A DNA stretch of 40,189 nucleotides, taken from contig CAZTVM010000004.1 of the NCBI GenBank assembly GCA_964617065.1, positions 1 through 40,189 on the forward strand, written 5' to 3'. The position numbers were made by a program, and so were the translations under genes. The notes below the pieces were generated by a model. It did not search any database, was not told the origin of the DNA, and worked only from the letters and a program-made list of their open reading frames with translations. Below, piece by piece: positions 2,915 to 40,189 of this stretch (position 1 is its first letter; each line of letters begins with the position of its first letter). The DNA comes from an uncultured Muribaculaceae bacterium. GTDB lineage: Bacteria; Cyanobacteriota; Vampirovibrionia; Gastranaerophilales; Gastranaerophilaceae.

Positions 2915-4102
2915 GTGAATATACTAAACGGTTTAATTGATTTATATAATGAAACAGGTTTCGCAAATATTGTAAAATCTCCGTTGGAGGGGCTTTCAGG
3001 TATTGAACAATTTTTGCATGTTTACGGAACTATTATAATGTTTGCGGTGTGCTTGCTTTTATTGTTTCTTGCGATAAAAAAAGGTTACGAACCGCTATTA
3101 CTTTTGCCTATTGGCTTTGGAGGAATATTGGCAAATATTCCAGTCGCAGGCATAGCGCAAGATGGTGGATTTTTACACATAATTTATAGCGCAGGTATAG
3201 AATCTGGTTTGTTTCCACTTTTCATATTTATGGGCGTTGGTGCAATGACTGATTTTGGTCCATTAATTGCGAATCCCAAAACGGCTTTACTCGGTGGTGC
3301 GGCTCAATTTGGAATATTTGGTGCTCTTTTAGGTGCATTATTCTTGGGGCAATACTGTGGATTTGACTTCGGAATGGCTGAAGCAGCTTCAATTGGTATT
3401 ATCGGTGGTGCTGACGGTCCTACCTCTATTTTTGTTACCTCAAAATTAGCGCCTGATTTACTTGGCGCAATTGCGGTTGCTGCGTATTCTTATATGGCAC
3501 TTGTCCCTATAATTCAACCGCCGATAATGAAAGCTCTCACGACTGAAGCTGAAAGAAAAATACAAATGTGTCAACTTCGTCCTGTTACGCAAAGAGAAAA
3601 AATTATATTTCCTCTTATCGTTTTAGCTTTGTGCATTATCTTTTTACCGAGTGCTACGCCTCTTATAGGTGCTTTAACTTTTGGCAATCTTGTTAAAGAA
3701 TGTGGTGTCACTGAAAGGTTATCGAAAACTTTGCAAAATGAATTTATCAATATTGTTACTATTTTGCTCGGTCTTTCTGTTGGTTCGAAGCTGTCGGCTG
3801 ACAAATTTCTTTCGCTTGAAACTTTAGGGATTTTGTTCTTAGGCTTATTAGCTTTTTCGCTGGCTACTGCATCAGGCGTTATTTTTGCCAAAATAATGAA
3901 TTTTCTATCGAAAGAAAAAATCAATCCGCTTATCGGCGCAGCAGGCGTTTCAGCCGTGCCGATGGCAGCTCGTGTTGTTAATAAAGTCGGATTGGAATAC
4001 AATAACCAAAACTTCCTGCTAATGCACGCAATGGGACCTAATGTTGCCGGTGTTATCGGCTCAGCTGTTGCGGCAGGTGTTTTATTATCACTATGTCATT
4101 AA
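2915..4102 (+). CDS. oadB: Na+-translocating decarboxylase beta subunit (OadB/GcdB/MmdB family)
   Basis: GTG start after an AAGGAG SD. Polytopic membrane protein with family blocks [13 protein letters not shown] and [14 protein letters not shown]. Confidence 0.9.
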
Positions 4103-7695: not shown

Positions 7696-9114
7696 TTAAG
7701 CGGAAAGTTTGCATTCGATTTCAAAAAATCTGTCCCAAGGAAATTCGTATACAATATCAGAAAAATCTGTTTTCAAAAAATTTTTCAATATATTTTCGTA
7801 AGGCACCATCAATTCTTTTACAGTATCCTCAGAGAGCCCACAATTAGTGGTTTTCATTTGTTGTCTTACATTAGATTGGTAAGCCCAGTCGTCTAAAAAT
7901 CTCGTAAATATTGTCAGATTAAATTTTCTAATATCAATTGATTTTGAAACTAACCTTGATAACGAAATGGCTATGACACTGCCTAACGTGTTACTTGTGG
8001 TATTCCAACCGGCATAACCGTACAAAGTGTCAACACTCTGGTTTTTGTTAAAAAGTGTTGCTACAAAGCTGTTATCTGCGCCATTGGCATTCAAAATATC
8101 CGCTATAAAATAAGGCTTTTTAGGCAACTCAAACTGGTCATAAAAGCCCTCCTCGTAAACGCCCATTACGAGCTCACCCTGTTCATTTTTAAAATTGTTG
8201 ACCAATAAAATCAAGTCGGCGTCTTGCTCATTTTCTGTCTCAATCGCTCCAGCTAATTCTATTTGCAGACTGACAGAAGTTTTTACAGATATATCTTCAT
8301 ATTTTGATATTTTACTCGTAAATTCTGGTTGCGTAAAAATAGTTTTAATTTTGATTGTTTTATTGTCTGTAAACACTTTTGAGAGTAACGTTAGTGGTAT
8401 TTCATCTGCGCCTGTTTTTACAGTAGCATCGAGATTTTCATCGTTTATCATTTGCTGCAAAATCTGTGCTTCCTTCACATTAAACCCATATTGAGCGCAA
8501 TCGTCTTTTGAATAAACTATAAAATCTAAAATCCCATTTTTAAGCCACTCAAGATAGTATTTATTTACATTAAAATTTCTTTCTCTTGTTTGAGTGTAAT
8601 CGTCGATAATCGCCTTTGGTAAAGTATTTTTAATACAATTACATTTATTTTGCGCTTCTGCCTCGAAAAGTGCCTCCGCACGATGTTTATTATAGGAATA
8701 ATCAAATATTTTTTTTCCGTATTGTGACCAGTATGTTTTTTCTTCTTCATTTATATTGTTGTTCGAAATACGCATTATACTTGAAAATGCAAAAACTTTT
8801 GCTGTTTTTTTGCTCAAAATATTTTTTAAATTTTCCAAATTTTCAACAATTCTTTCATACACATCTTCTGACTTTCTAGAGTTAATCAACCCGCCATAGG
8901 CTATAGTATCAAGAGCAATAACTATATAGTCAGGATTTTCAACAGATTTTAACCATTCGAGAATTTTTTTAGCGTCTGCGTTAGTTTTTAGTCCGCCTAG
9001 TAAATTTCTTGGTGGTAAAAAAATTTCATAATCGTCGCTAAAATCTATTATTTGTTTAGGCAAACAATAACATACAGGTCTGTTGTCAATTGGTACAAAT
9101 GCAATTTTTTTCAT
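7696..9114 (-). CDS. DUF4127-like protein (uncharacterised family)
   Basis: 472-aa ORF. The N-terminal motif FVPIDNRPVCY and the length match my recollection of DUF4127. The start is 2 nt downstream of the upstream gene's stop, with an AGGA SD inside that gene's end. Confidence 0.5.
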   Translation of the reverse strand: MKKIAFVPIDNRPVCYCLPKQIIDFSDDYEIFLPPRNLLGGLKTNADAKKILEWLKSVENPDYIVIALDTIAYGGLINSRKSEDVYERIVENLENLKNILSKKTAKVFAFSSIMRISNNNINEEEKTYWSQYGKKIFDYSYNKHRAEALFEAEAQNKCNCIKNTLPKAIIDDYTQTRERNFNVNKYYLEWLKNGILDFIVYSKDDCAQYGFNVKEAQILQQMINDENLDATVKTGADEIPLTLLSKVFTDNKTIKIKTIFTQPEFTSKISKYEDISVKTSVSLQIELAGAIETENEQDADLILLVNNFKNEQGELVMGVYEEGFYDQFELPKKPYFIADILNANGADNSFVATLFNKNQSVDTLYGYAGWNTTSNTLGSVIAISLSRLVSKSIDIRKFNLTIFTRFLDDWAYQSNVRQQMKTTNCGLSEDTVKELMVPYENILKNFLKTDFSDIVYEFPWDRFFEIECKLSA

Positions 9115-19783: not shown

Positions 19784-21847
19784 TTATGCGTTGTTAGTTT
19801 CTTCTTCTGTGTCAGGTTCATTTTCGTTTTCAGCTGTCGTTTCACCCCAGTTTTTGTTAATGATATCTACTGTTATTTTTTCACCGTCGAGAACCATTGT
19901 ACCATTTGTCTGGAGTGTAATTCCTGCAGAATTAGCTGCGGCTAAAGACTCATTAGCTTCTTTTTTACGTCTGGCATTTTCAGCTTCAAAGTCGGCTGTC
20001 GCTTTTGTGAGTGCGTCTTTTGCATCTTCAATGGATTTTCTTGAACTATCTTTTGCTGTAGAATCCGCTTGAACATTCAAATCTATTATATTTCCGTTCG
20101 CATCTAATGTTGGGTCGTAATTTATAGTATATTTCATATTGTAGGCATCTTTGTAAACTTTTGAAATATATTCATTATTGTCCAATCGTTGGTAACCGCT
20201 CAATGTATTGCCATTAGACATTGAAACATTGAATCTGTTTTGTGTCAGATTGTTGTTGATGTCGAGCCAATTTTCTTTGTTAATCAAACTACCACTGTAT
20301 GCACCACCACTTTGGAATGTGCTTAAATCAATGCTCGTGACACCTGCTAGTGAAGCTGACGTGAAAGATCGTGCACCGGTTGCCCAGTTAGTTTTTAGTA
20401 TAGTCAAGTCTTCAAGTTCTTCATTTTCAATTTTTCCGTTTTTGTCTGTGTCGTACATCAATAATTCTTCTATGCCTGTTATAAACCCATCACCGTCTAC
20501 GTCGAATTTTTTTACGTCTTCAGCGCTCATGCCTGCAAATTTTTCACCAAATGTAGATACGATATTTGCGTCAGTCAATGATGATGTTTGCACTTTGGCT
20601 GCGCCCAAAAATTCTTCTGAACCGTTAAAAATATTATCACCATTAGCGTCTACTACAAAATCATAACTGATGTTACCGTGATTGAAGCCAATAGGGTCAG
20701 TTCTGTCTTCTTCAACCTGTTCATCTTCGTTTTCTACGACAGCTTCGCCCTCATCGGTAGGAAGATTTACTGTTCCACCTGTCGCAGTGACTACTTGAGG
20801 AGTAAATACGTTTCCGGCTGCATCAGTATATGTTCCGTCACCATTATTTGTAGCATTAGCAATTTTTGTATCTGAATTTGCCCAATCTAATGAATTTAAT
20901 TGTGATACTAATTTGCCGTATGTGTCACGTTCTTCTGTTCCATGTCCCCATGGGACTACAAACTTATTTGTCGCTGCATCATAGCTTATACCAGTATCAG
21001 GAAACATCCAGTTGATTGCATAAACGGCTTCCGGCATACTGAATGCACCATCGTACATTTGTCCAATTATGCCATCGTCTAAAGCTTTTCCTAGCCCACT
21101 TAAACCACCGTCATTAGCGCCTTTGCCATATTTCGATGATAGAAAATCTATCAAGTCGACCTTTTGTGGACTGTATATTGAAGAACCGCTTGCGTACTTT
21201 TTGTCAAAATCAACTGCTTCAGTCATGTTTGCTAGCAACGCATTGACTGTATTTAATGAAACAGTTGTCAATGCCAACTGCTGCTGAGTGACTGTCAAAG
21301 ATTGAGTCGTGTCGCTGATAGTTTCACTAAGTGCTGTTATTTTTTGTTTGTACGCTGTATTTCCATCTAATTTTTGTTGCAATTGGGTTTCTGTCATATT
21401 AGAAAAACCAAGCATAACTATCTTTCCTGCCAATTTACTTGAAAATTCATCTTCTGTAATTTCACCTTTTTTCAAATCTTCAATTAAACTACTTTGTGCT
21501 TTACTTATTTCTTTTTGTTGTTCTTCTGTTAAATCAGCGGCTTCTTGCATAATCTCTTTTAATGAAGCGTCTAATTCTTCTTCATATTGAGCTATCAACT
21601 CGATATTATCATTATTATCGGTTTCGAGCTCTTTTATTTTTTTATTCAAGGTTTCAATAGCTGCCTGTAAGCTTTTTTGTTGAGCTTCTAAATCTGCTTT
21701 TTTTGATGTATCTGAACCTACATTAAACAATTTGCTGTTTATTAGCCCGTTTGCTTCTGTTTGAGCAGCAGCTAATTGATTTATGTCGTTTAATGCTGAA
21801 TTTACTTTCGTGCCAAGACCTAATACACTATTTACGTCAAATGCCAT
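19784..21847 (-). CDS. Large coiled-coil protein with RTX-associated/EF-hand-like Ca2+-binding region, no signal peptide
   Basis: Preferred start is ATG 21847 (GAGGTG SD 5 nt upstream) rather than the ORF-track GTG 21853. There is a long N-terminal heptad-like region. An acidic linker comes next, then TDPIGF...FDVDGDGFITGIEELLMYDTDKNGKIENEELEDL...GVTSIDL (about 20404-20512). A C-terminal coiled coil and acidic tail complete the protein. Confidence 0.7.
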   Translation of the reverse strand: MAFDVNSVLGLGTKVNSALNDINQLAAAQTEANGLINSKLFNVGSDTSKKADLEAQQKSLQAAIETLNKKIKELETDNNDNIELIAQYEEELDASLKEIMQEAADLTEEQQKEISKAQSSLIEDLKKGEITEDEFSSKLAGKIVMLGFSNMTETQLQQKLDGNTAYKQKITALSETISDTTQSLTVTQQQLALTTVSLNTVNALLANMTEAVDFDKKYASGSSIYSPQKVDLIDFLSSKYGKGANDGGLSGLGKALDDGIIGQMYDGAFSMPEAVYAINWMFPDTGISYDAATNKFVVPWGHGTEERDTYGKLVSQLNSLDWANSDTKIANATNNGDGTYTDAAGNVFTPQVVTATGGTVNLPTDEGEAVVENEDEQVEEDRTDPIGFNHGNISYDFVVDANGDNIFNGSEEFLGAAKVQTSSLTDANIVSTFGEKFAGMSAEDVKKFDVDGDGFITGIEELLMYDTDKNGKIENEELEDLTILKTNWATGARSFTSASLAGVTSIDLSTFQSGGAYSGSLINKENWLDINNNLTQNRFNVSMSNGNTLSGYQRLDNNEYISKVYKDAYNMKYTINYDPTLDANGNIIDLNVQADSTAKDSSRKSIEDAKDALTKATADFEAENARRKKEANESLAAANSAGITLQTNGTMVLDGEKITVDIINKNWGETTAENENEPDTEEETNNA

Positions 21848-21947
21848 ATTCACACCTCATTGGTTACACATTTATATAAAGTCTTTCGAATATATAATAT
21901 TTCAATATTTCTTATATCTGTTACAAATTTTAACAAACGGCAAACAA

Positions 21948-24675: not shown

Positions 24676-25041
24676 TTATGCTTTTTTAGCAAAAATATTA
24701 CAAATCCAATCACCGGCTTTAGCTATAGAATACTTTGTTTTAGCCCAAATACCTTTTTCAGCTTTGTCCCAGCCGTTCAGAGGAATGTCTTTCAGTCCGG
24801 TCCATTTTCTAGTAGCAGCCAACCCTCCACCTATAACAGCAACACCTATCAAGGTGCCTATTATTTTTGCAGTTAACGAGGTTTTTGGTTTTTCAGCTGT
24901 ATTTTCGTAAGTGTCCTTCATATTTTGGTTTAACGATGAAGAAGGTACAGACGATTGTGAAGATATATTTTGACGATTAGTTTGTGGTGTAGCTATTAAT
25001 TGTTGTAATGTCGCTGAATCGCTTATTAAAGTTGTTGACAT
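24676..25041 (-). CDS. Hypothetical single-pass membrane protein (121 aa)
   Basis: Perfect AGGAGG SD 5 nt upstream of the ATG. Ser/Gln-rich N-terminal half, TM helix IIGTLIGVAVIGGGLAA, Trp/Lys-rich C-terminal tail. I recognise no family. Confidence 0.6.
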   Translation of the reverse strand: MSTTLISDSATLQQLIATPQTNRQNISSQSSVPSSSLNQNMKDTYENTAEKPKTSLTAKIIGTLIGVAVIGGGLAATRKWTGLKDIPLNGWDKAEKGIWAKTKYSIAKAGDWICNIFAKKA

Positions 25042-25226
25042 GTGACCTCCTATTTCATTTTATACTGTTATTATTTTAATACATGAGAATATTTTTTATT
25101 GTTATTTACATGATTTTTTTTACTGAAATGTAATAATTCTTAATATTAGTTAACTTTTTTCCTTAATATTTTGTTTTATTTTGTTAATTTGTTATAAAAT
25201 TATTATTAGGAAATTGGGGAAAAAAC

Positions 25227-26870
25227 ATGCCTAAAATAATGAGCGAGGAGAAAATAGCTATAACTCCGGATATAGTTGACGAATCAAAAAAATCGGCGGC
25301 TTTGGTTTCTGATGAAAATCTGAGGAAAAAAGTATTCGTATCTTTTTTAGCGCTTAACAGCTTTGTTAAGTTTATGGGCGAAAACGATATTAGCATGGAT
25401 ATACGTGAAAGCTTATCTCGTGTAAATTCTATTTTTGAATGTATTGATTTGTGCCATTTGACTTATAAAAATTTACAAATAGACATAAGAGTTATTTTAG
25501 AAGGCAATAGCTTTTTTATCCCTAAATCCCATTTTAGAAAAGATATCGTACCGGATTTGTATGTAGTAGATAAAAAACTTAAAGACATTGAGTTTTTAGG
25601 CTACGTGAGCACAAATATGCTCGAAGTGGCTGAAGATTTAAACGAATACTATGGTGTTCCTATATTTGCGCTAAAGCCTATAGAGGATTTGTTTTTCGAT
25701 ATTATTACGATGGTACCTAATAAAAAACTTTTTGACCAGTCTGAGCATGCTGCTGCTCAAGAACTTTTCTCTGATTATTTTGATGGCAAATTATCAAAAG
25801 TAGAAAAAATGTATCTGATTAAACATTTGTTCTACTGTTCAGAATGTAGAGAGAAATTTATTAATTTCTATGATTTCGATATTCTCGCAAAGCAAATTCA
25901 AAATCATCCGCAAATATTAAAAAATTCAAAATTGAATATAGACATGGAAAGTGATGATACTCAAGAAATTGTTGAAGAACTTTTGTCTGCACCAAATAAA
26001 AAAAATAGCGATGATGAATTTTTTGAAGATTTAAGGAATGATATACATAGCAGTGCGCCACCTGTTTTTAAAAATAAATTTCAAAAAGCTCTAGATGGCG
26101 ACATGCCGACAGAACCAAATCAAGTTAGTGGGAAAATACCATTTGTTCAAACAGAAATAACTGAAAACGATAAACTTTATGTGCATGCTCCTGTGGAAAA
26201 TGATAACAATTTGGCTGTGTTGTTTGATGAAAATTCTATACCACAAGAAAAAACTGTTTCAAAACTTTATTCGGCACAATCATCAGGTAATCCCAAAACA
26301 GGTAAAAATATTGCAATTCTTGTCGTTGCTTTGTCACTGGCTTTAGCTTTATTCTCTTTTGGCTGCTATAAAGTATTTAAAGGCTACCATAAACCTCAAA
26401 CTGCTTCGTCTGAAAACTTTGATTTTTCTCCTGAGAATATGGCGAATAACGCTGAATTAAACGCTGATGCAGGGCCTAAAGACATTAATAAAACTATAGC
26501 CGATAGTTTTAATGATTATGTTTCGCCTATTTCAATTACTAAAATTTCTTGGGAAGTCCTACCTCAGTACGCTGAAAGTGAAGTTTTCGTCGATTATTTG
26601 CAAAATACAGGCGCAAGTATTCAAAATAATTTAATACAAGATTTGGCTAAAATTAAAGAAGCAGCTACGTTTAGTGATGTTGTTGTTGTGAGTTTCACTT
26701 TTACTAACAATCAATCCATTAAAAATTTCAAAATTGAAAAATCAAGTGGCTCTGATGTGTTAGACAAAGCTATTTCAAACAGCGTCCAAAATACGCTGAA
26801 AATGTATTCTTACCCTACTTTCGATTCGAAAGTAAAAAGCATTGACTTTAAGTTAATTATTGGATTTTAG
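25227..26870 (+). CDS. Candidate membrane anti-sigma factor: DUF1822-like N-domain - zf-HC2 motif - TM helix - TonB-C-like C-domain
   Basis: Residues about 30-135 follow the DUF1822 pattern as I recall it (FLALNSFVKFM...IDLCHL...FFIPKSHF...DLYVV...IEFLGYVS). H-x3-C-x2-C (HLFYCSEC) is at 25824-25847. TM helix IAILVVALSLALALFSFGCY at about 26310-26375. The C-terminal block VVVSFTFTNNQSIKNFKIEKSSGSDVLDKAISNSV resembles the TonB C-terminal domain. Confidence 0.6.
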   Translation: MPKIMSEEKIAITPDIVDESKKSAALVSDENLRKKVFVSFLALNSFVKFMGENDISMDIRESLSRVNSIFECIDLCHLTYKNLQIDIRVILEGNSFFIPKSHFRKDIVPDLYVVDKKLKDIEFLGYVSTNMLEVAEDLNEYYGVPIFALKPIEDLFFDIITMVPNKKLFDQSEHAAAQELFSDYFDGKLSKVEKMYLIKHLFYCSECREKFINFYDFDILAKQIQNHPQILKNSKLNIDMESDDTQEIVEELLSAPNKKNSDDEFFEDLRNDIHSSAPPVFKNKFQKALDGDMPTEPNQVSGKIPFVQTEITENDKLYVHAPVENDNNLAVLFDENSIPQEKTVSKLYSAQSSGNPKTGKNIAILVVALSLALALFSFGCYKVFKGYHKPQTASSENFDFSPENMANNAELNADAGPKDINKTIADSFNDYVSPISITKISWEVLPQYAESEVFVDYLQNTGASIQNNLIQDLAKIKEAATFSDVVVVSFTFTNNQSIKNFKIEKSSGSDVLDKAISNSVQNTLKMYSYPTFDSKVKSIDFKLIIGF

Positions 26871-26873
26871 ATT
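26861..26873 (+). repeat. Copy 1 of the exact 13-nt repeat TGGATTTTAGATT, followed by tandem TAGATTAG x2 and a third TAGATT
   Basis: Read directly. It spans the stop codon of the anti-sigma-like gene and sits 28 nt before the sigma-like GTG. TAGATT recurs at about 26868, 26876 and 26895. Confidence 0.7.
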
Positions 26874-26900
26874 AGTAGATTAGTAATAGGATGATAGATT

Positions 26901-27491
26901 GTGAGTATCGTTAAAGAAAAACAAGTAGAATTAATTAAGCAGGTAGTTTTGAGTAGTGACTACTACGAAGGCAATGAAGATTTATTGTATGAATTTTGTC
27001 AAGAAGTCTATGGCAAGTCATATTTGTTATTCAAAACTGTATCTAATCACGAGTATTTGAAAGGGTATTTAAGAAAAATAGCCACAACTTCTATAATAAA
27101 GATTTTGAAGCAAAAAAATCGATTAAAAAGAAATCCTAGCAGTTACATGACTGTTAAAGAGCCTGCTGTAGACTCCAACTCTGCTGCAAACGATGTAAAG
27201 GCCCTTCCTGCAAGAAATAAGCATGTTTATGATGTTTATAAAATTGAAGACCCTTATGAAGAAGATTTTGAGCCCAGTTTCGCTGACAGTGACATAAAAA
27301 AAGTTCTCTACCTTGTGCAGGTTATCGATTCGGCTAATCCCAGTCAAAATTATTTAGCGTTGTTTAAATCCAGATATATTGATAATAAATCTAATTCTGA
27401 AATAGCTCAAAAATTAAATTTGCCTGAAAACATAGTCTTACAAAGACTATTAGAGCTTTCTGTACTTATTTGCAAGAATTCTCAAGTCTAA
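26901..27491 (+). CDS. Divergent ECF-like sigma-70 family factor (region 2-like and region 4 HTH separated by a long linker)
   Basis: GTG start with an AGGA SD 9 nt upstream. Region-2-like EDLLYEFCQEVYGKSYLLF...YLKGYLRKIATTSIIKILKQKNR. Region-4 HTH LALFKSRYIDNKSNSEIAQKLNLPENIVLQRLLEL. Confidence 0.6.
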   Translation: MSIVKEKQVELIKQVVLSSDYYEGNEDLLYEFCQEVYGKSYLLFKTVSNHEYLKGYLRKIATTSIIKILKQKNRLKRNPSSYMTVKEPAVDSNSAANDVKALPARNKHVYDVYKIEDPYEEDFEPSFADSDIKKVLYLVQVIDSANPSQNYLALFKSRYIDNKSNSEIAQKLNLPENIVLQRLLELSVLICKNSQV

Positions 27492-27511
27492 TCTTTTTTT
27501 ACCCCTATTGG

Positions 27512-27524
27512 TGGATTTTAGATT
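27512..27524 (+). repeat. Copy 2 of the exact 13-nt repeat TGGATTTTAGATT
   Basis: Read directly. It lies in the intergenic region 20 nt after the sigma-like stop. It is 24 nt upstream of a TATAAT (27548-27553) that precedes the thioredoxin-like gene. Confidence 0.7.
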
Positions 27525-27572
27525 GTAGTAAATAAATTATTATGCTTTATAATGTATAGAGGAGCTTTTGAC

Positions 27573-27980
27573 ATGAAAAAATGGTTATTAATATTATTCA
27601 TAGTAGTTTTGCCAATGATTGTATTTTATTTCTTTGATTTGAAAAAAGGAACGGATACATCTTCGCTTGAGTTACCGGCAGCCCTTGCTGCAAACAAACC
27701 AACGGTTTATCGATTTTCGTCATCTATGTGCATGGATTGTCAAGAATTAGAAAAAGTAATGAAAGAAGTTGAACCAAAATATTCGGATAAAATCGTTTTT
27801 TATTCTTTTAAAGTTGACAGAGCAAACAAAAATGTGAAAGAAAAAATTAAAAAATATAACATTTCGCTTGTTCCGACTATGATTTTAATTGATAAAAACG
27901 GAAAAGAAACTCTTAAAATAGAAGGTTTTGTAGAAAAGCCTGTTTTAGAAAAACATTTTAAGGCATTGAGCAATGAATAG
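27573..27980 (+). CDS. Membrane-anchored thioredoxin-fold protein (CxxC = CMDC)
   Basis: The ATG at 27573 has an AGAGGAG SD. N-terminal TM anchor WLLILFIVVLPMIVFYFF. CMDC active-site-like motif and a VPT cis-Pro-like block (SLVPTMILID). Confidence 0.7.
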   Translation: MKKWLLILFIVVLPMIVFYFFDLKKGTDTSSLELPAALAANKPTVYRFSSSMCMDCQELEKVMKEVEPKYSDKIVFYSFKVDRANKNVKEKIKKYNISLVPTMILIDKNGKETLKIEGFVEKPVLEKHFKALSNE

Positions 27981-28686
27981 TATTTTTAGTTTTTTTCATG
28001 AACAATTAGCTGTCGGACATTTTTCGTTGTTGCTCTTAGCATTGGCGTTTTTGGGCGGTATTGTTATGTCACTGGCACCCTGTAACCTCGCTATTTTACC
28101 GCTTGTTATTGGATATGTTGTCGGTTGCAGTGAAAATGTAAATCACAAATTAGTACTTCAACTATGCCTGTTTGTTGTAGGTATGTCGTTGGTATTTACG
28201 ACTATTGGTATTATTTCTGCACTTACTGGCATGGTATTTATTTCATTTTTGAGCCCTTATTGGATATTATTTATAGCTTCTGTCATTTTGATTTTCGGGT
28301 TAAACATGGCAGGGTTCATTTCGTTTAATTTCCCTGTCTTAATAAAAAAATATCCTACAGTGTTGAGCAACAATGGGTACTTATATGCTTTTTTAATAGG
28401 TATGATTTTTGCTTTAGCAGCTACACCTTGCTCTACTCCTATTTTAGCGAGTATAATGGCAGCTACTTCTTTAAGCCAAAACATTCTTATGGGGGCATTA
28501 ATGCTTTTTTTGTTTTCAATAGGGCAAAGTTTAATTATTATTCTTGCTGGACTGTGCACATCTTTTTTGAAACATTTAAAACGAATAAATCAATACACTG
28601 AGTATTGCACACGCTCGACCGGGTGGGTGTTTATATTATTTGCTGCATACTTGTATTACAAGATGTTCAAGCCGTTTTTTGTATAA
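27973..28686 (+). CDS. ccdA: Cytochrome c biogenesis / thiol:disulfide electron-transfer membrane protein, CcdA/DsbD-TM family
   Basis: The start overlaps the previous gene by 8 nt. Six-TM protein with the two signature Cys-Pro segments (LAPCNLAILP, ATPCSTPIL). Confidence 0.8.
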   Translation: MNSIFSFFHEQLAVGHFSLLLLALAFLGGIVMSLAPCNLAILPLVIGYVVGCSENVNHKLVLQLCLFVVGMSLVFTTIGIISALTGMVFISFLSPYWILFIASVILIFGLNMAGFISFNFPVLIKKYPTVLSNNGYLYAFLIGMIFALAATPCSTPILASIMAATSLSQNILMGALMLFLFSIGQSLIIILAGLCTSFLKHLKRINQYTEYCTRSTGWVFILFAAYLYYKMFKPFFV

Positions 28687-28692
28687 ATTAAA

Positions 28693-30546
28693 TTAATTTG
28701 CACTCACGTCATCAGCTAAGCCGACTTGATTTCTTCCGTTTTCTTTCGCTTTATATAAACCTTTATCAGCATATCCGATAATATCGGTCGAACTTACTCC
28801 GTTTTCAGGATATGTAGAAACTCCGAGACTGATAGTCACTGTTTGTATATTATTTTGACCTAACTTAAAAGGAGTATTAGCAACAATATTACAAATTTTT
28901 TGTGCAGTTAAAACGGCTTCTTGCTTAGCCGTATTAGGCAGTATTATAGTCATTTCTTCTCCGCCGTAGCGACAAACAATGTCACTTACCCTGACTGTTT
29001 TTTTTAAAATTTGTGAAACTTGTTTAAGTACGTTATCTCCGGCTTGATGACCATATTTATCATTGAATTTTTTGAAAAAGTCTATGTCTATTAGAAGTAA
29101 CGAAAAGCTTGTGCCATACCTTTTGCTGTTTTCTATATTAATAATTAATTGCTCCTGAAAATATCTGTGGTTATAAAGTTCAGTCAATCCATCAGTCGTC
29201 GCCAATTTATATGTATACTCTAAATCTCTTGATTTTAAAAGATACTTTACGACGTAAACAGCTGTGAAAGTCAGCAATAATGAAATTACAGGAAGGATAA
29301 TAGGAATCCATATATCGTAAACTTTCATAATCCAACCGGAAAATAAAATATAACCAACTGTTAAAAGAATTGTTACTAAAAAACATATAGTAGGGCGCTT
29401 TATACGGAAAAGGAAAAATATTAACAGCACTGATAAAGTGAATGTTATTAAAAAGTCAGCCAGTGGATTTAATCGGACAATAAAACTATTATCGAGTGCG
29501 TTATTTACAAAGGTAGTATGCAGATTTACTGCCGGCATGACCGATGTTATCGGCGAAGACTTTATATCATATAGCGCAACAGCCGATGTTCCCACATAAA
29601 TTATTTTGTCTTTAAAGTAATTTTTTGGAATTTTGTTTAGCGTCTTTTCACCCTTCATTGATTTGTAAACATCTAAAAAAGATACCTGCGCAAAACTATT
29701 ATTTCTATCGTACCAGTGCAAAATGCTCGTTGCATTTTTTTGTAACGGAATTTTGTATTCTCCTATTTCAAGTTGGTTATTAGAGTTAATAATTAATTCA
29801 TCAATTTTCTTTTTTGTTTTTTGTTCCTCAAGTTGCATTAAGAGTTTTGTCGACAAATTTGGGTAATATTCATTTTTATACACAAAAAATGGTGAAAACT
29901 CACGATAAATACCGTCAATAGAGGGTGTTGCATTTATCAAACCTATGTTTTTAGTAGAATTCAGTATTTCAGGTAATATTTTTCTGCAATTTGGGAAATT
30001 AATATTAATATTTTTTTGGGGTTCTATTTTTGAATAATTTTTTATATTTACTTTAAGTCCGCTAGGCAAATCAATAGGAAGTCTGGTTTCTGCTGTTTCA
30101 AAGTCAAAATTCATTGATGTAAAAACATTTTCATATTTTGCTATTGTTTTTGATAAATATTTATCACTTTCTAAAGAACTTTTTATAGAACTTATAAACA
30201 ATAAGTCGAGACAAATCGCTTTAGGAGAGTCCCTTTCAATATAGTTTATAATGTCGGCATAAACATCACGAGGTATTGGCCATTCTCCGAAACGCTCAGT
30301 CAAGGCACTATAAGTTCTTTCATCGATAGCCAGAATTACGACATCATCACTCGTCTCACGACTGCTTGCGTTTATTCTTTGCCGAGCGTCAAAAGTCTTT
30401 AACTCCACAGTCTCCAAAAAATTAATCACATTCGTAAATATATTTGCTACAGTACTTTGATTGATTACCAAAGCCAAGCTGCACACTAATAAAATAAATA
30501 CCGACGCAGCTATGACCAAAGTTTGCTTATATGTTTTTTTGCCCAT
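28693..30546 (-). CDS. CHASE2 sensor-domain diguanylate cyclase (GGDEF)
   Basis: N-terminal TM, then a CHASE2-like periplasmic block (VVILAIDERTY...GEWPIPRDVYA...AICLDLLF), three TM helices and a GGDEF domain. The active-site motif reads GGEEM. An RxxD I-site (RVSD) lies 5 residues upstream. Confidence 0.85.
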   Translation of the reverse strand: MGKKTYKQTLVIAASVFILLVCSLALVINQSTVANIFTNVINFLETVELKTFDARQRINASSRETSDDVVILAIDERTYSALTERFGEWPIPRDVYADIINYIERDSPKAICLDLLFISSIKSSLESDKYLSKTIAKYENVFTSMNFDFETAETRLPIDLPSGLKVNIKNYSKIEPQKNININFPNCRKILPEILNSTKNIGLINATPSIDGIYREFSPFFVYKNEYYPNLSTKLLMQLEEQKTKKKIDELIINSNNQLEIGEYKIPLQKNATSILHWYDRNNSFAQVSFLDVYKSMKGEKTLNKIPKNYFKDKIIYVGTSAVALYDIKSSPITSVMPAVNLHTTFVNNALDNSFIVRLNPLADFLITFTLSVLLIFFLFRIKRPTICFLVTILLTVGYILFSGWIMKVYDIWIPIILPVISLLLTFTAVYVVKYLLKSRDLEYTYKLATTDGLTELYNHRYFQEQLIINIENSKRYGTSFSLLLIDIDFFKKFNDKYGHQAGDNVLKQVSQILKKTVRVSDIVCRYGGEEMTIILPNTAKQEAVLTAQKICNIVANTPFKLGQNNIQTVTISLGVSTYPENGVSSTDIIGYADKGLYKAKENGRNQVGLADDVSAN

Positions 30547-38000: not shown

Positions 38001-40189
38001 TGAATACTCTCGAAAAAATTTTGAATAATGTAAATAAACCATACCAGTATGTTGGTAATGAAATGCAGTCAGTCAATAAAAATTGGAGTGACTCAGATGT
38101 GAAGCTCGCTTTGGTTTTTCCCGATAAATACGAAATTGGCGCTAGTAATCTCGGTCAAAAAATTTTGTATTCGCTTGTAAATCAGCAAGAAAATTTATTT
38201 GCAGATAGAGCTTATGCGCCTGATTTAGATTTTATTGCAGAATTAAATAAAAATGATGTTGAATTATATGGATTGAATTCAAAAAAAAGTTTGCGAGATT
38301 TTGATTTTGTTGGATTTTCACTGCAGTATGAATTGGCGTATCCAACAGTATTAAAGCTTTTGGAAATGGCGAAAATTCCGGTTAAAAGAGAAGAAAGAGA
38401 TGAAAATTATCCTATCATCTTAGCCGGTGGACCTTCGACTTTCAATCCTATCCCGATGTCTGATTTTATTGATGTTTTTCAAATTGGAGATGGTGAAGAA
38501 ACAACCGTGCAAATCATGCAAATGTATCTTAAATTAAAAAATCAAGGTTTATCTAAAAAAGAAATTTTGCACGAATTATCTAAAATCCAAGGGCTTTTTA
38601 TTCCTGAATTGTATAATTACAGAAAATTACCGATTACGCCAAAATACGAAAATGTGCCTGAGAAAGTAAAAAAAGCGATGGTTCAATTAAATGCAGAGAA
38701 TTTTCCTGAGCTTTACCCAGTAGCGTATTCGACATCGATACATGACAGGGCAACATTAGAAATACGACGAGGTTGCGGTCGAATGTGTAGATTTTGTCAG
38801 CCAGGGCATGTGACATTGCCTGTGCGAGAACGAAAAGCTGCAGATATAATTGCCGCCACAAAGGAACTAGTTAAAAAAACAGGTTACGACGAGTATTCAC
38901 TTTTGTCGTTATCATCGAATGACTATACAAATATTGAAAGTGTAATTGAGGAGTTGAGTTGCACTTTTTCATCAAAAGGTATTTCAGCGTCGCTACCAAG
39001 CCAGCGGGTGGATAAGTTTAGCGTGAAATTGGCTAATTTAGTACAAGAAATTCGCAAATCGACATTGACTCTGGCACCTGAAGCAGGTTCTCAACGAATG
39101 AGAAATGTAATTAACAAAAATTTGACTAAAGAACAAATAATTTCGGCTTCTTTACAAGCTTATGAAAACGGTTTTCATCAGTTGAAATTTTATTTTATAA
39201 TCGGCTTGCCTACTGAAACGTATGAGGATTTAGACGAATTGATTAGCTTGTTAAGCGAAATAAAAAATGCGGCTAATAATCTTAAACGAGAAAAAAATAT
39301 ACCTCAAAGTCTTACTTTGACTTGCACTTTATCAATTTTTGTACCAAAACCGTTTACACCATTTCAGTGGTTTGCACAAACAGATTTAGAAGAAATAATG
39401 AATAGAATTCATTATTTGAAAGAAAAAGCAAAAATTTTAAAAGGTGTAAAATTGAATTATCATGATAAAGCCATATCACAGATTGAAGCTGTTTTTTCAC
39501 GTGGCGGTTATGAGTTGAATGATTACATATATGCTTTGTATAAAAAAGGCGCTTATTTAGATGGTTGGGACGAGAATTTTAACTATTCGATGTGGCGTTC
39601 AACAGCTGAGGCTTTGGGAATTTCTTTAGAACAATTAGCACAAAAGGTATATGAATTAGACGAACCACTTAGTTGGGATGTGATTGATGTCGGAGTAAAC
39701 AAAGAATGGTTGCAGAATGAGTATAGACAAGCTTTAATTTCTCAAGTATCTGTACCTTGTGAGGTAAAATGCACGAACTGTGGCGTTTGTCGTTCTTTTA
39801 ATACGAAAAAAGTCGTTGACTCCAGCTATTCACCGAATTTGACACATAAAAAAGTTTTTAATGAAACAACATATAAATACAGAATAAAACTGTCTAAAAT
39901 GGGTTATTTGAAATATCTTTCACATTTAGATTGGCAAAATACTTTGCTGAAAGCACTTTACAAGACTGATTTGAATTTGGTTTTTTCGCAAGGTTTTAAT
40001 CCAATACCAAAAATTTCGCTGGGAGTAGCGTTGCCGTTATTTGTTGAAAGTGAATGTGAATTAGTTGACATTGAACTTTATGATGATTTGGAAGAAACGG
40101 AGTTAAAAAAAATTATTCAGCAAAAGTTGCCTGAAAACTCGATAATCTCCAAAATAACGAAAATCGATAAAAAAGCTCTTTCTATAGAT
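38000..40189 (+). CDS. Radical SAM protein of the uncharacterised TIGR03960-like family, fused to a DUF2344 (TIGR03936-like) C-terminal domain; 3' end runs off the window
   Basis: Open frame from ATG 38000 to the window end (730 codons), absent from the ORF track because no stop is reached. N-terminal B12-binding-like region. CxxxCxxC (CGRMCRFC) at 38774-38797. From about 39870 on, YKYRIKLSKMGYLKYLSHLDWQNTLLKAL...SQGFNPIPKISLGVALPL matches the DUF2344 pattern. Confidence 0.8.
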   Translation, partial: MNTLEKILNNVNKPYQYVGNEMQSVNKNWSDSDVKLALVFPDKYEIGASNLGQKILYSLVNQQENLFADRAYAPDLDFIAELNKNDVELYGLNSKKSLRDFDFVGFSLQYELAYPTVLKLLEMAKIPVKREERDENYPIILAGGPSTFNPIPMSDFIDVFQIGDGEETTVQIMQMYLKLKNQGLSKKEILHELSKIQGLFIPELYNYRKLPITPKYENVPEKVKKAMVQLNAENFPELYPVAYSTSIHDRATLEIRRGCGRMCRFCQPGHVTLPVRERKAADIIAATKELVKKTGYDEYSLLSLSSNDYTNIESVIEELSCTFSSKGISASLPSQRVDKFSVKLANLVQEIRKSTLTLAPEAGSQRMRNVINKNLTKEQIISASLQAYENGFHQLKFYFIIGLPTETYEDLDELISLLSEIKNAANNLKREKNIPQSLTLTCTLSIFVPKPFTPFQWFAQTDLEEIMNRIHYLKEKAKILKGVKLNYHDKAISQIEAVFSRGGYELNDYIYALYKKGAYLDGWDENFNYSMWRSTAEALGISLEQLAQKVYELDEPLSWDVIDVGVNKEWLQNEYRQALISQVSVPCEVKCTNCGVCRSFNTKKVVDSSYSPNLTHKKVFNETTYKYRIKLSKMGYLKYLSHLDWQNTLLKALYKTDLNLVFSQGFNPIPKISLGVALPLFVESECELVDIELYDDLEETELKKIIQQKLPENSIISKITKIDKKALSID

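What the first reader, a model, noticed from the sequence alone, without database searches (positions are those of the whole stretch)
25227..27491. Candidate novel sigma/anti-sigma system: DUF1822-like domain fused to a zf-HC2 anti-sigma motif, TM helix and TonB-C-like domain, followed by a divergent ECF-like sigma
The 547-aa protein combines four elements I have not seen described together.
- **N-terminal domain (about 190 aa):** it follows the DUF1822 pattern. DUF1822 is an uncharacterised family reported mainly from cyanobacteria.
- **H-x3-C-x2-C motif (HLFYCSEC, 25824-25847):** this is the zinc-binding anti-sigma signature. It normally sits at the extreme N-terminus but lies at residue 200 here.
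- **A long low-complexity linker and a single TM helix.**
- **C-terminal domain:** an extracytoplasmic domain resembling the TonB C-terminal fold.

The next gene, 30 nt downstream, encodes a 196-aa protein with ECF-like region 2 and a clear region 4 HTH, separated by an unusually long linker. The gene order (anti-sigma first, sigma second) is the reverse of the usual ECF arrangement.

The fusion gives a concrete functional hypothesis for DUF1822: a cytoplasmic partner or regulatory domain of a sigma-control pathway.
Basis: partly seen in the sequence, partly recalled or inferred. Interest (0 to 1): 0.7.

Follow-up and report, generated by a model that had tools for sequence, protein, structure and literature searches.

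The report
Anti-sigma factor with nuclease-fold domain
These two genes encode an alternative sigma factor and the membrane protein that most likely holds it inactive; that inhibitor belongs to a large, undescribed family from non-photosynthetic relatives of cyanobacteria and carries an unusual extra domain with the fold of a restriction enzyme.

Summary
Both ORFs sit at the stated coordinates, and every domain call survives profile and structure tests. The 547-aa protein runs: DUF1822-like α/β domain, zinc-type anti-sigma domain (ASD), charged linker, one TM helix, TonB/TolA-C-like domain. A divergent ECF-type sigma gene starts 30 nt downstream.

New findings:
1. This is not a one-off fusion. 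The N-terminal module matches 736 representative clusters, nearly all with the same architecture. The identifiable sources are a Gastranaerophilaceae MAG, the ACD20 genome and human-gut metagenomes.
2. In all 14 related loci with downstream DNA, the next gene is a homologue of this sigma.
3. The DUF1822-like part has a restriction-endonuclease (PD-(D/E)xK) fold with a conserved but non-canonical D…DxR…PKxH motif. Only the N-terminal half of DUF1822 is present.
4. Four zinc ligands (H174, H200, C204, C207) co-vary across the family.
5. Thioredoxin/CcdA are syntenic neighbours, not operon members.

Best reading: a lineage-specific ECF sigma/anti-sigma pair with a new anti-sigma architecture. The trigger is unknown. 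A DUF1822–ECF sigma gene-neighbourhood link in cyanobacteria was already published (Kaur et al. 2021), so that idea is not wholly new. Novelty: new variant of a known kind. Interest 0.6.

The parts
24676..25041 (-). Small single-pass membrane protein (121 aa), transcribed divergently from the anti-sigma gene. A frequent third component of the locus.
   Evidence: Homologous small genes occupy the same divergent position in L001, L002, L006, L016, L017 and L018 (local BLASTP on a tiny database: E 1e-6 to 3e-4 between clades, 1e-31 within a clade). They are absent in L003-L005. No Pfam or NCBIfam family.
25124..25134 (+). TGAAATGTAAT element about 100 nt upstream of the start codon. Candidate promoter or operator element (a lead only).
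   Evidence: TGAAA(C)...TGTAA(C/T) lies at -98 to -118 in the window, L001, L006, L016, L017 and L018, that is, in both protein clades. No conserved -10 partner was found. The only other copy in the window (38935) is inside an ORF.
25227..26870 (+). Gene for the 547-aa membrane anti-sigma-like protein (whole ORF).
25248..25709 (+). N-terminal alpha/beta domain (residues ~8-161). Homologous to the first ~180 positions of Pfam DUF1822 and has a restriction-endonuclease-like (PD-(D/E)xK) fold.
   Evidence: AF2 model pLDDT 89.7, pTM 0.85. Foldseek against PDB: Hjc resolvases (prob 0.99), NaeI, DpnI, HincII, EcoRV, PA-N, RecU. Foldseek against BFVD: 15 hits with E<=1e-3, best 4.2e-7, including 'Restriction endonuclease' phage proteins with TMt 0.59-0.64. 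DUF1822 hits 21 of 23 members. Conserved residues out of 143: [E/D]74 140, D77 136 (H in the window), D86 135, R88 139, P99 143, K100 123, H102 136, Y112 143, G125 143.
25737..25922 (+). Class I anti-sigma domain (residues ~171-232; helices 171-185, 191-203, 205-226, 229-232).
   Evidence: zf-HC2 above threshold. Profile against PDB: RsiW 5wuq_C E=1.7e-4 (ASD residues 5-55), DdvA 8rlz, RslA 3hug_B. Helices from the AF2 model.
25746..25748 (+). Codon of H174, the proposed fourth zinc ligand.
   Evidence: 97 of 143 family members have H/H/C/C at positions 174/200/204/207, about 35 have lost all four together, and only about 9 are partial. Also visible in alignment A6.
25824..25847 (+). H200-x3-C204-x2-C207 zinc motif (HLFYCSEC).
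   Evidence: Read directly from the sequence. Invariant in the close clade. Family covariation.
25932..26297 (+). Low-complexity charged linker (residues ~236-357), inferred to be cytoplasmic.
   Evidence: Not alignable between orthologues. Family-wide the linker has median length 483 aa (range 121-1573), with D+E median 32% and K+R 5%. The window has the shortest (121 aa, D+E 19%).
26298..26366 (+). Single transmembrane helix (residues ~358-380).
   Evidence: Hydropathy scan. A TM helix is present at the equivalent place in 130 of 150 representatives.
26523..26867 (+). C-terminal extracytoplasmic TonB/TolA-C-like domain (residues 433-547).
   Evidence: The isolated domain scores TonB_2 24.6 bits (threshold 22) and TonB_C 23.4 bits (threshold 24.6). 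TonB_2 hits 15 of 19 members and TonB_C 14 of 19. Weak PDB profile hits to TonB and TolA C-domains, E 0.13-0.53. The domain is present in 135 of 150 representatives.
26901..27491 (+). Gene for the divergent ECF-type sigma factor (196 aa): sigma-2 residues ~3-71 (26907-27113), disordered linker 78-127 (27132-27281), sigma-4 129-194 (27285-27482).
   Evidence: TIGR02937 E=8.2e-9, below the cut-off. Region 4 in 6 of 6 relatives, above threshold in the L016 sigma. SigR region 2 (1h3l) E=0.004. AF2 model. Foldseek top hits are Mtb SigH, E. coli sigmaE/RseA, AlgU/MucA, SigL and SigW/RsiW, prob 0.95-1.00. A homologue follows the big gene in all 14 related loci with downstream DNA.
27573..28686 (+). 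Membrane-anchored thioredoxin (CMDC motif; the likely true start is 27573) and CcdA/DsbD_TM. Syntenic neighbours, probably a separate transcription unit.
   Evidence: Pfam Thioredoxin and DsbD_TM. Present after the sigma gene in the window, L001 and L003 only. A terminator hairpin lies between sigma and trx in L001 and L003, and trx in the window has its own TTGTAG-N18-TATAAT.

Best explanation
The two genes encode an ECF-type (group 4) sigma factor and its cognate single-pass membrane anti-sigma factor. They are one member of a large lineage-specific family, so far traced to Vampirovibrionia/Melainabacteria sources.

Shown here: the 547-aa protein contains a class I zinc-type anti-sigma domain (helices 171-232; ligands H174, H200, C204, C207). 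The gene that follows encodes a two-domain sigma-2/sigma-4 protein. This gene pair is conserved across the family.

Inferred mechanism: the anti-sigma domain clamps sigma-2 and sigma-4, as RsiW does with SigW and RseA with sigmaE, and so holds the sigma at the inner membrane. The periplasmic TonB/TolA-C-like domain is the sensor. It probably binds a periplasmic or outer-membrane partner through the beta-strand-addition contacts typical of that fold. Loss or gain of that contact would lead to regulated proteolysis of the anti-sigma and release of the sigma.

The N-terminal DUF1822-type restriction-endonuclease-fold domain is predicted to pack rigidly against the anti-sigma helices. In this clade it is most likely non-catalytic (the motif reads D74/H77/D86-x-R88). 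It probably acts as a stabilising or second-input module, binding a ligand, a nucleic acid or a partner protein. The zinc site is probably structural rather than a universal redox switch.
For: ASD:
- zf-HC2 30.8-34.1 bits against a threshold of 22.2.
- Profile match to RsiW from the solved SigW-RsiW complex, E=1.7e-4, then DdvA and RslA.
- Helices in the AF2 model.
- Four-ligand covariation, 97 of 143 HHCC against about 35 with all four lost.

Sigma:
- TIGR02937 E=8.2e-9.
- Region 4 in all relatives.
- Foldseek neighbours are ECF sigmas, several of them solved in complex with anti-sigmas.

Pairing: the sigma homologue lies immediately downstream in the window and in all 14 related loci with downstream DNA. 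This includes members with only about 30% identity in the N-module.

Architecture conserved in the family: 736 representative clusters match the N-module. Of the top 150, 135 have the C-domain and 130 a TM helix.

TonB/TolA-C-like periplasmic domain.

Rigid packing of the nuclease-fold domain on the ASD: pTM 0.85 for the 235-residue module.

Context: ordinary chromosomal genes, and no defence-system HMM hits.
Against: - No direct test of sigma binding, zinc binding or RNAP binding was possible.
- The sigma is below the curated cut-offs of every sigma model when scored alone. Its AF2 model is only moderate (pLDDT 70.9, from a 5-sequence alignment), and the Foldseek E-values are about 3e-3.
- Membrane topology (N-in, C-out) is inferred, and the flanking charges are ambiguous.
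- Nothing identifies the signal, the periplasmic partner or the proteases.
- The strong conservation of D77, D86, R88, K100 and H102 in most of the family shows that the nuclease-fold domain has its own conserved site. Its role is unexplained, and it could be the primary sensor rather than an accessory.
- A conserved, hyper-acidic cytoplasmic linker up to 1573 aa long has no role in the standard model.
Confidence: 0.6

Rival explanations
1. A thiol-redox switch of the RsrA/SigR type. Oxidation of the Zn-Cys site releases the sigma, which then drives envelope thiol-reducing functions (thioredoxin and CcdA).
For: An intact H/H/C/C site in the window clade. A membrane-anchored thioredoxin and CcdA lie directly downstream in the window, L001 and L003. 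The best sigma-2 sequence match in the PDB is SigR.
Against: About a quarter of the family has lost all four ligands, so zinc or redox cannot be the general mechanism. Trx-CcdA is absent from L004, L005 and the whole distant clade. A terminator hairpin separates sigma from trx in L001 and L003, and trx has its own promoter-like site in the window. From my own knowledge, most ZAS-motif anti-sigmas are not redox sensors.
Confidence: 0.15
2. The DUF1822-type nuclease-fold domain is the primary sensor. It binds nucleic acid (for example invader or damaged DNA) or another cytoplasmic ligand and allosterically opens the adjacent ASD. This would link the module to the counter-invader systems in which Kaur et al. 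place cyanobacterial DUF1822 and ECF sigma genes.
For: The restriction-endonuclease fold is confident. There is a near-invariant acidic and basic residue cluster, [E/D]74, D77, D86, R88, K100, H102. The domain is predicted to pack rigidly on the ASD. A DUF1822-ECF sigma neighbourhood in cyanobacterial caspase-EACC2 systems is published. The hyper-acidic linker could act as an intramolecular DNA mimic (speculative).
Against: Arg replaces the canonical Lys, and the window clade has lost D77 (H or N). No caspase, EACC2 or other defence gene is nearby, there are no PADLOC hits, and the neighbours are housekeeping genes. The membrane anchor and conserved periplasmic domain argue for an envelope input.
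Confidence: 0.15
3. Not a sigma/anti-sigma pair. Instead, a TonB/TolA-like envelope protein with an incidental zinc finger, next to an unrelated HTH regulator.
For: All sigma profile scores for the window protein are below the curated cut-offs. The TonB/TolA-C similarity is real.
Against: The TM helix lies just before the C-domain rather than at the N-terminus, there is no Pro-rich periplasmic spacer, and the long linker is on the cytoplasmic side. The ASD matches solved anti-sigma domains. The small protein has both sigma-2- and sigma-4-like halves and ECF sigma structural neighbours. The gene pairing is strict.
Confidence: 0.05

Closest known systems
RsiW/SigW (Bacillus subtilis) and similar single-pass class I zinc anti-sigma / ECF sigma pairs (RslA/SigL, RseA/sigmaE)
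   Same: A cytoplasmic helical ASD with an H-x3-C-x2-C motif plus an upstream fourth ligand. One TM helix and an extracytoplasmic C-terminal domain. An adjacent ECF sigma gene. RsiW is the best PDB sequence match of the ASD. SigW, sigmaE, SigL and SigH are structural neighbours of the sigma.
   Different: The ASD is internal (it starts at about residue 171) and follows a 160-aa nuclease-fold domain. The gene order is anti-sigma then sigma. There is a long charged cytoplasmic linker between the ASD and the TM helix. The periplasmic domain is TonB/TolA-C-like. The sigma has a linker of about 50 residues with a conserved Y-[DE]-x-Y-K-I-E-D-P motif.
ChrR/sigmaE (Rhodobacter sphaeroides) zinc anti-sigma
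   Same: The same ligand chemistry and spacing, as I recall it: ChrR H6, H31, C35, C38, against H174, H200, C204, C207 here. Weak NCBIfam hit to anti_sig_ChrR.
   Different: ChrR is soluble with a C-terminal cupin sensor and has no N-terminal extra domain or TM helix.
Cyanobacterial DUF1822 (PF08852) proteins next to ECF sigma factors and EACC2-caspase genes (Kaur, Iyer, Burroughs, Aravind 2021, PMC8195603)
   Same: Homology to the first ~180-190 positions of the DUF1822 model. Genomic association with an ECF-type sigma. A sister lineage of the cyanobacteria.
   Different: Only the N-terminal half of DUF1822 is present. The C-terminal half (called 'TPRs' by Kaur et al.) is replaced by an ASD, and the ASD segments alone never hit DUF1822. 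There are no caspase, EACC2 or TRADD-N genes nearby. The protein is membrane-anchored with a periplasmic domain.
PD-(D/E)xK restriction-endonuclease-like superfamily (Hjc resolvases, type II REases, phage 'restriction endonuclease' proteins)
   Same: The fold of residues ~8-161. Acidic residues at the positions expected for the motif: D77 at the start of one strand, and D86-x-R88 on the next.
   Different: Arg replaces the catalytic Lys throughout the family, and D77 is H or N in the window clade. The domain is fused to an anti-sigma domain. No nuclease context.
TonB / TolA C-terminal domains and FecR-type trans-envelope signalling
   Same: The C-terminal ~85 residues match TonB_2 and TonB_C profiles. 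As with FecR, the anti-sigma has a periplasmic domain likely to contact an envelope partner.
   Different: It is not an energy transducer: there is no N-terminal TM anchor or Pro-rich spacer. The anti-sigma itself carries the TonB-C-like domain rather than binding a TonB-dependent transducer through a FecR domain.

Membership tests
Class I anti-sigma domain, zinc-binding (ZAS; Pfam zf-HC2 PF13490) | Profile match above the curated threshold | tested here: met
   30.8 bits (full protein), 31.4 bits (N-module) and 34.1 bits (ASD alone) against a threshold of 22.2.
Class I anti-sigma domain, zinc-binding (ZAS; Pfam zf-HC2 PF13490) | H/C-x(23-26)-H-x3-C-x2-C four-ligand site | tested here: met
   H174-x25-H200-x3-C204-x2-C207. 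The ligands co-vary: HHCC in 97 of 143 members, all four lost together in about 35.
Class I anti-sigma domain, zinc-binding (ZAS; Pfam zf-HC2 PF13490) | Bundle of three to four helices | tested here: met
   AF2 helices 171-185, 191-203, 205-226 and 229-232, with pLDDT mostly above 90. Aligns to RsiW residues 5-55.
Class I anti-sigma domain, zinc-binding (ZAS; Pfam zf-HC2 PF13490) | Encoded next to its ECF sigma | tested here: met
   The window and all 14 related loci with downstream DNA.
Class I anti-sigma domain, zinc-binding (ZAS; Pfam zf-HC2 PF13490) | Binds and inhibits the sigma; binds zinc | not testable with these tools
   No multimer prediction and no model coordinates were available. 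This needs biochemistry.
ECF (group 4) sigma-70 family | Profile match at the curated cut-off | tested here: not met
   TIGR02937 35.3 bits against 42.9 (E=8.2e-9). Sigma70_r4_2 16.9 bits against 25.7. Relatives reach threshold for region 4 (L016 sigma 27.8 bits). Sigma70_r2 hits only 2 of 6 members, weakly.
ECF (group 4) sigma-70 family | Only sigma-2 and sigma-4 domains, about 200 aa | tested here: met
   Two helical domains, 3-71 and 129-194, joined by a disordered linker.
ECF (group 4) sigma-70 family | Structural similarity to solved ECF sigmas | tested here: met
   The top 15 Foldseek PDB hits are all ECF sigmas (prob 0.95-1.00, E 3e-3 to 4e-2). Region 4 gives TMt 0.63-0.71.
ECF (group 4) sigma-70 family | Binds core RNAP and directs promoter-specific transcription | not testable with these tools
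   Needs an experiment.
DUF1822 (PF08852) | Profile match above the gathering threshold | tested here: inconclusive
   The full protein scores 23.2 bits, below 25. The isolated N-module scores 25.8 bits, above 25. 21 of 23 family members hit, best 9.6e-13. P0034 scores 45.2 bits.
DUF1822 (PF08852) | Coverage of the whole 370-position model | tested here: not met
   Matches always end at model position ~157-193. ASD segments alone do not hit DUF1822. This is homologous to the N-terminal half only.
PD-(D/E)xK nuclease superfamily | Restriction-endonuclease-like alpha/beta fold | tested here: met
   Foldseek against BFVD, best E 4.2e-7, TMt up to 0.64 over ~180 columns, with targets named restriction endonuclease. 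Against PDB, Hjc prob 0.99.
PD-(D/E)xK nuclease superfamily | Catalytic D...(D/E)-x-K motif | tested here: not met
   The family consensus is D77...D86-x-R88, and the window has H77...D86-x-R88. The residue-to-site mapping is inferred from the secondary structure, not from a superposition.
TonB energy transducer | C-terminal TonB_C/TonB_2 domain | tested here: met
   TonB_2 24.6 bits, above 22, for the isolated domain. 15 of 19 members hit.
TonB energy transducer | N-terminal TM anchor coupling to ExbBD, with a Pro-rich periplasmic spacer | tested here: not met
   The only TM helix is at residues 358-380, after 357 cytoplasmic residues. The linker is acidic and charged, not Pro-rich.

The most novel reading that the evidence does not exclude
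The DUF1822 N-terminal domain is a degenerate restriction-endonuclease-fold sensor that has been wired repeatedly into ECF sigma control. In Melainabacteria it is fused directly to an anti-sigma domain. In cyanobacteria it appears as a separate DUF1822 protein next to ECF sigmas. It would gate sigma release in response to a cytoplasmic nucleic-acid or nucleotide signal. This would make the family a two-input anti-sigma (periplasmic TonB-C-like domain plus cytoplasmic nuclease-fold domain) and would assign a function to DUF1822.
Probability: 0.15. Interest if true: 0.8.

Novelty: new variant of a known kind. Interest (0 to 1): 0.6.

Why it matters
The finding defines a large conserved sigma/anti-sigma family that every named source simply calls 'hypothetical'. 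It comes from a poorly studied, largely uncultured lineage: gut and groundwater relatives of the cyanobacteria.

The anti-sigma architecture breaks several textbook rules. The anti-sigma domain is internal. A nuclease-fold domain is packed against it. A hyper-acidic cytoplasmic linker runs to hundreds of residues. The periplasmic domain is TonB/TolA-like. The gene order is reversed.

It also gives DUF1822 a structural identity (restriction-endonuclease fold) and a second, independent link to ECF sigma control. That turns a vague gene-neighbourhood observation into a testable protein-level hypothesis.

Tried and rejected
- The word-indexed protein search reaches this family poorly. It found 5 hits for the big protein, 5 for the sigma, and 3 with a 23-sequence profile. 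The family size came only from the exhaustive profile search.
- The exact-sequence contig look-up of the window protein found nothing.
- I tried to reach canonical cyanobacterial DUF1822 genes and their neighbours. The Tolypothrix plasmid accessions are not held. tblastn of the best DUF1822-scoring N-module against plasmids gave only a chance hit. So I could not compare the C-terminal half of canonical DUF1822 with an ASD by profile-profile alignment. The indirect test (ASD-only segments against Pfam) was negative for DUF1822.
A 13-sequence alignment worked.
The 5-sequence model is only moderate.
- Model coordinates are not exposed. Zinc-site geometry, the clustering of the nuclease-motif residues and the domain-ASD interface could not be measured.
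- PADLOC defence models gave no hits.
- Literature searches for anti-sigma with Melainabacteria, for zf-HC2 with TonB, and for PF08852 found nothing. The ECF reclassification paper does not mention DUF1822, caspase or CHAT in its main text.
- I rejected the idea that Trx-CcdA is part of the operon.
- I rejected the second copy of the upstream motif at 38935 as a regulon site, because it lies inside an ORF.
- No conserved -10 partner was found for the TGAAAC-like element.


Full report
**1. Observation**

The window carries ORF 25227-26870 (+, 547 aa). Thirty nucleotides later comes ORF 26901-27491 (+, 196 aa, GTG start preceded by AGGA). HLFYCSEC is residues 200-207, which is nt 25824-25847.

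Pfam on the whole 547-aa protein:

| Model | Bits | Threshold | Residues |
|---|---|---|---|
| zf-HC2 | 30.8 | 22.2 | 176-208 |
| DUF1822 | 23.2 | 25 | 10-181 (model 1-180 of 370) |
| TonB_2 | 20.8 | 22 | 461-533 |
| TonB_C | 20.0 | 24.6 | 484-530 |

Scanned as separate domains, the N-module scores DUF1822 25.8 and zf-HC2 31.4. The C-terminal 115 residues score TonB_2 24.6. Some sit on the edge of the curated thresholds for this one sequence, but they are secure at family level (section 2).

**2. It is a family, not a one-off fusion**

Word-indexed search found only four homologues (36-39% identity), all with the same architecture. The exhaustive profile search with the N-terminal 235 residues gave a very different picture. 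It found 736 representative clusters with E<=1e-3 and 647 with E<=1e-10. Almost all match the whole module at their own N-terminus, in proteins of 750-1100+ aa.

Among the best 150 representatives:
- 105 keep H-x3-C-x2-C at about residue 200.
- 135 have the same C-terminal domain.
- 130 have a TM helix before it.

Wider members pass the Pfam thresholds clearly. DUF1822 gives 45.2 bits (P0034) and 33.8 (P0103). zf-HC2 gives 27.6. TonB_2 gives 25.6. DUF1822 hits 21 of 23 diverse members, and TonB_2 hits 15 of 19.

Sources that can be named are a Candidatus Gastranaerophilaceae MAG, human-gut metagenome contigs and EKE03481.1 from 'ACD20'. To my knowledge ACD20 is a groundwater Melainabacteria genome. 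Every source that names these proteins calls them 'hypothetical protein'. The window's 32% G+C fits this lineage. Its ordinary chromosomal neighbours (recF, class II aldolase, CHASE2-GGDEF, tsaB, PGI) show it is not a mobile element or defence island.

**3. Gene context**

The big gene is immediately followed by a homologue of the window's 196-aa protein (E 1e-48 to 1e-99 against a small local HMM). This holds in L001, L003-L009, L011-L013 and L016-L018, which is every related locus with downstream DNA. It includes loci whose big protein is only about 30% identical in the N-module. The order anti-sigma then sigma is a family trait.

A small single-pass membrane protein is encoded divergently upstream in 7 of 10 distinct loci from both clades.

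The thioredoxin and CcdA/DsbD_TM genes follow the sigma only in the window, L001 and L003. In L001 and L003 a terminator hairpin separates them from the sigma gene. In the window, trx has its own -35/-10-like site and a better start at 27573. I treat them as neighbours, not operon members.

**4. The anti-sigma domain**

A 23-sequence profile of the N-module finds RsiW from the SigW-RsiW complex (5wuq_C, E=1.7e-4, RsiW residues 5-55). It then finds DdvA (8rlz) and RslA (3hug_B). The AF2 model (23 sequences; pLDDT 89.7, pTM 0.85) shows helices 171-185, 191-203, 205-226 and 229-232.

The alignment reveals a fourth conserved ligand, H174, 26 residues before H200. Across 143 full-length members the four positions read H/H/C/C in 97. 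All four are replaced together in about 35, and only about 9 are mixed. That covariation is what a single four-ligand zinc site predicts. As I recall them, the ligand type and spacing are those of ChrR (H6, H31, C35, C38).

About a quarter of the family has discarded the site altogether, so zinc is unlikely to be the general signal receiver. I have no gene context for the zinc-less members. All loci with a confirmed sigma partner are HHCC.

**5. The DUF1822-like domain is a restriction-endonuclease fold**

Residues ~8-161 form an alpha/beta domain.

- Against the PDB, the best Foldseek neighbours are Hjc Holliday-junction resolvases (2eo0_A, prob 0.99, E 3.3e-3). They are followed by NaeI, DpnI, HincII, EcoRV, influenza PA-N, RecU and a SPARDA nuclease.
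- Against predicted viral structures there are 15 hits at E<=1e-3 (best 4.2e-7; TMt 0.59-0.64 over ~180 columns). These include proteins named 'Restriction endonuclease', 'PD(D/E)XK endonuclease domain-containing protein' and 'Holliday junction resolvase'.

The family has a near-invariant residue set (counts out of 143): [E/D]74 140, D77 136, D86 135, R88 139, P99 143, K100 123 (plus 16 R), H102 136, Y112 143, G125 143.

D77 sits at the start of one strand and D86-x-R88 lies on the next. This looks like PD...(D/E)xK with Arg for Lys. I infer that mapping from the secondary structure, because no superposition was available. The window clade has H or N at position 77. I therefore regard the domain as a conserved, probably non-catalytic, nuclease-fold module.

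The DUF1822 profile match never extends beyond model position ~193. ASD segments alone never hit DUF1822. So the family shares only the N-terminal half of DUF1822, and the ASD replaces the C-terminal half.

**6. Linker, TM helix and C-terminal domain**

Between the ASD and the TM helix lies a non-alignable linker:
- Median length 483 aa (range 121-1573).
- D+E median 32%, K+R median 5%.
- The window has the shortest (121 aa) and a less acidic one.

About 165-195 residues follow the TM helix. The last ~115 form the conserved TonB/TolA-C-like domain.

N-in/C-out topology is inferred from three things. There is no signal peptide. The ASD needs to be cytoplasmic. A very long acidic segment would be hard to export.

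The protein is not a TonB-type energy transducer, because it lacks the N-terminal anchor and the Pro-rich spacer.

**7. The sigma**

Evidence that the 196-aa protein is an ECF-type sigma:
- NCBIfam sigma70-ECF covers residues 14-185 at E=8.2e-9, but at 35.3 bits it is below the 42.9 cut-off.
- Region 4 is found in all six relatives first tested, and it reaches threshold in the L016 sigma.
- The region 2 profile best matches SigR (1h3l, E=0.004).
- The AF2 model (pLDDT 70.9) has helices 3-71 and 129-194 with a disordered 78-127.
- Its top 15 PDB neighbours are all ECF sigmas (Mtb SigH, sigmaE-RseA, AlgU-MucA, SigL), with SigW-RsiW a little further down the list. Region 4 gives TMt 0.63-0.71.

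The linker of about 50 residues contains a conserved Y-[DE]-x-Y-K-I-E-D-P motif. So this is a divergent ECF-type sigma. It is a member by architecture and fold, but below the curated sequence cut-offs.

**8. Mechanism**

Shown: an ASD-bearing single-pass membrane protein is strictly paired with an ECF-type sigma.

Inferred:
- The ASD sequesters the sigma at the membrane.
- The periplasmic TonB/TolA-C-like domain receives an envelope signal by protein-protein contact.
- Regulated proteolysis frees the sigma.
- The nuclease-fold domain packs rigidly against the ASD (pTM 0.85) and either stabilises the complex or provides a second, cytoplasmic input.

Rivals:
- **Redox switch.** Weakened by family-wide loss of the ligands and by the non-operonic Trx-CcdA.
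- **Nuclease-fold domain as the primary nucleic-acid sensor.** Supported by its conserved site and by the cyanobacterial conflict-system contexts. Weakened by the degenerate motif in this clade, the housekeeping context and the absence of PADLOC hits.
- **Not a sigma system at all.** Unlikely.

**9. Prior art and novelty**

Kaur et al. [quoted passage not shown] They also list DUF1822-named proteins as TRADD-N+TPRs. So a DUF1822-ECF sigma association by gene context is already published.

I found three things undescribed in that paper or in the other searches. These are the fusion of the DUF1822 N-domain to an anti-sigma domain, its nuclease fold, and this Melainabacterial family.

I classify the finding as a new variant of a known kind (ECF sigma / class I anti-sigma), with interest 0.6.

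**10. Candidate cis element (lead only)**

A TGAAA(C)...TGTAA(C/T) element lies 98-118 nt upstream of the start codon in both clades (window 25124-25134). It resembles the 'AAC' -35 motif of ECF promoters. I could not find a conserved -10 partner, so it remains a lead.

Noticed in passing
window 24676-25041 (-); L001 5173-5565; L002 4275-4784; L006 3245-3772; L016 3287-3781; L017 3092-3607; L018 3574-3786: A small single-pass membrane protein (120-175 aa). It has an S/P/Q-rich N-terminus, a 'KKKSHWF'-TM-'A(A/I)(T/L)RK' core and, in the distant clade, an Ala/Glu/Thr-rich repetitive tail. It is encoded divergently upstream of the anti-sigma gene in 7 of 10 distinct loci. No family match.
   Followed up: partly
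window 25124-25134, and the equivalent positions in L001, L006, L016, L017, L018: A TGAAA(C)...TGTAA(C/T) element sits at a constant distance (-98 to -118) from the anti-sigma start codon in two clades whose proteins are only ~30% identical. It resembles the ECF -35 'AAC' motif. No conserved -10 partner was found.
   Followed up: partly
window 27228-27254 (sigma residues 110-118): A conserved Y-[DE]-x-Y-K-I-E-D-P motif lies inside the otherwise variable, predicted-disordered sigma-2/sigma-4 linker of the sigma family. Its function is unknown. It could be a region-3.2-like element.
   Followed up: no
window 25932-26297, and the linkers of P0012-P0155: The cytoplasmic linker between the ASD and the TM helix is hyper-acidic and hypervariable in length across the family (median 483 aa, up to 1573; D+E median 32%). 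No explanation. The window clade has the shortest and least acidic linkers, and it is also the clade that lost D77.
   Followed up: partly
P0012 (1086 aa): This family member carries two tandem copies of the N-terminal module (residues ~6-234 and ~330-560). Both lack the zinc ligands.
   Followed up: no
L018 3971-6781: The big gene appears broken into several ORFs (N-part 195 aa, C-domain 80 aa), while the downstream sigma gene is intact. This is either a pseudogene or an assembly or frameshift error.
   Followed up: no
L001 ~8228-8270; L003 ~3385-3425; window 27492-27572: A terminator-like hairpin (AAAGGCAT...ATGCCTTT plus a T-run) lies between the sigma gene and trx in L001 and L003. In the window, trx has TTGTAG-N18-TATAAT and a GAGGAG ribosome-binding site that favour a start at 27573 rather than 27552.
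   Followed up: yes
window 28693-30546 (-): A CHASE2-GGDEF diguanylate cyclase is encoded convergently right after ccdA. L001 also has a large gene convergent at the same place, which was not examined.
   Followed up: no
window 19784-21853 (-): A 689-aa ORF with no Pfam hit at E<=1e-5.
   Followed up: no
PDB 8rot_B: A CHAT (caspase-like) domain protein in the PDB has an N-terminal segment (residues 9-48) that weakly matches the ASD part of the profile (E 1.1). This recalls the cyanobacterial caspase / ECF sigma / DUF1822 neighbourhoods.
   Followed up: no
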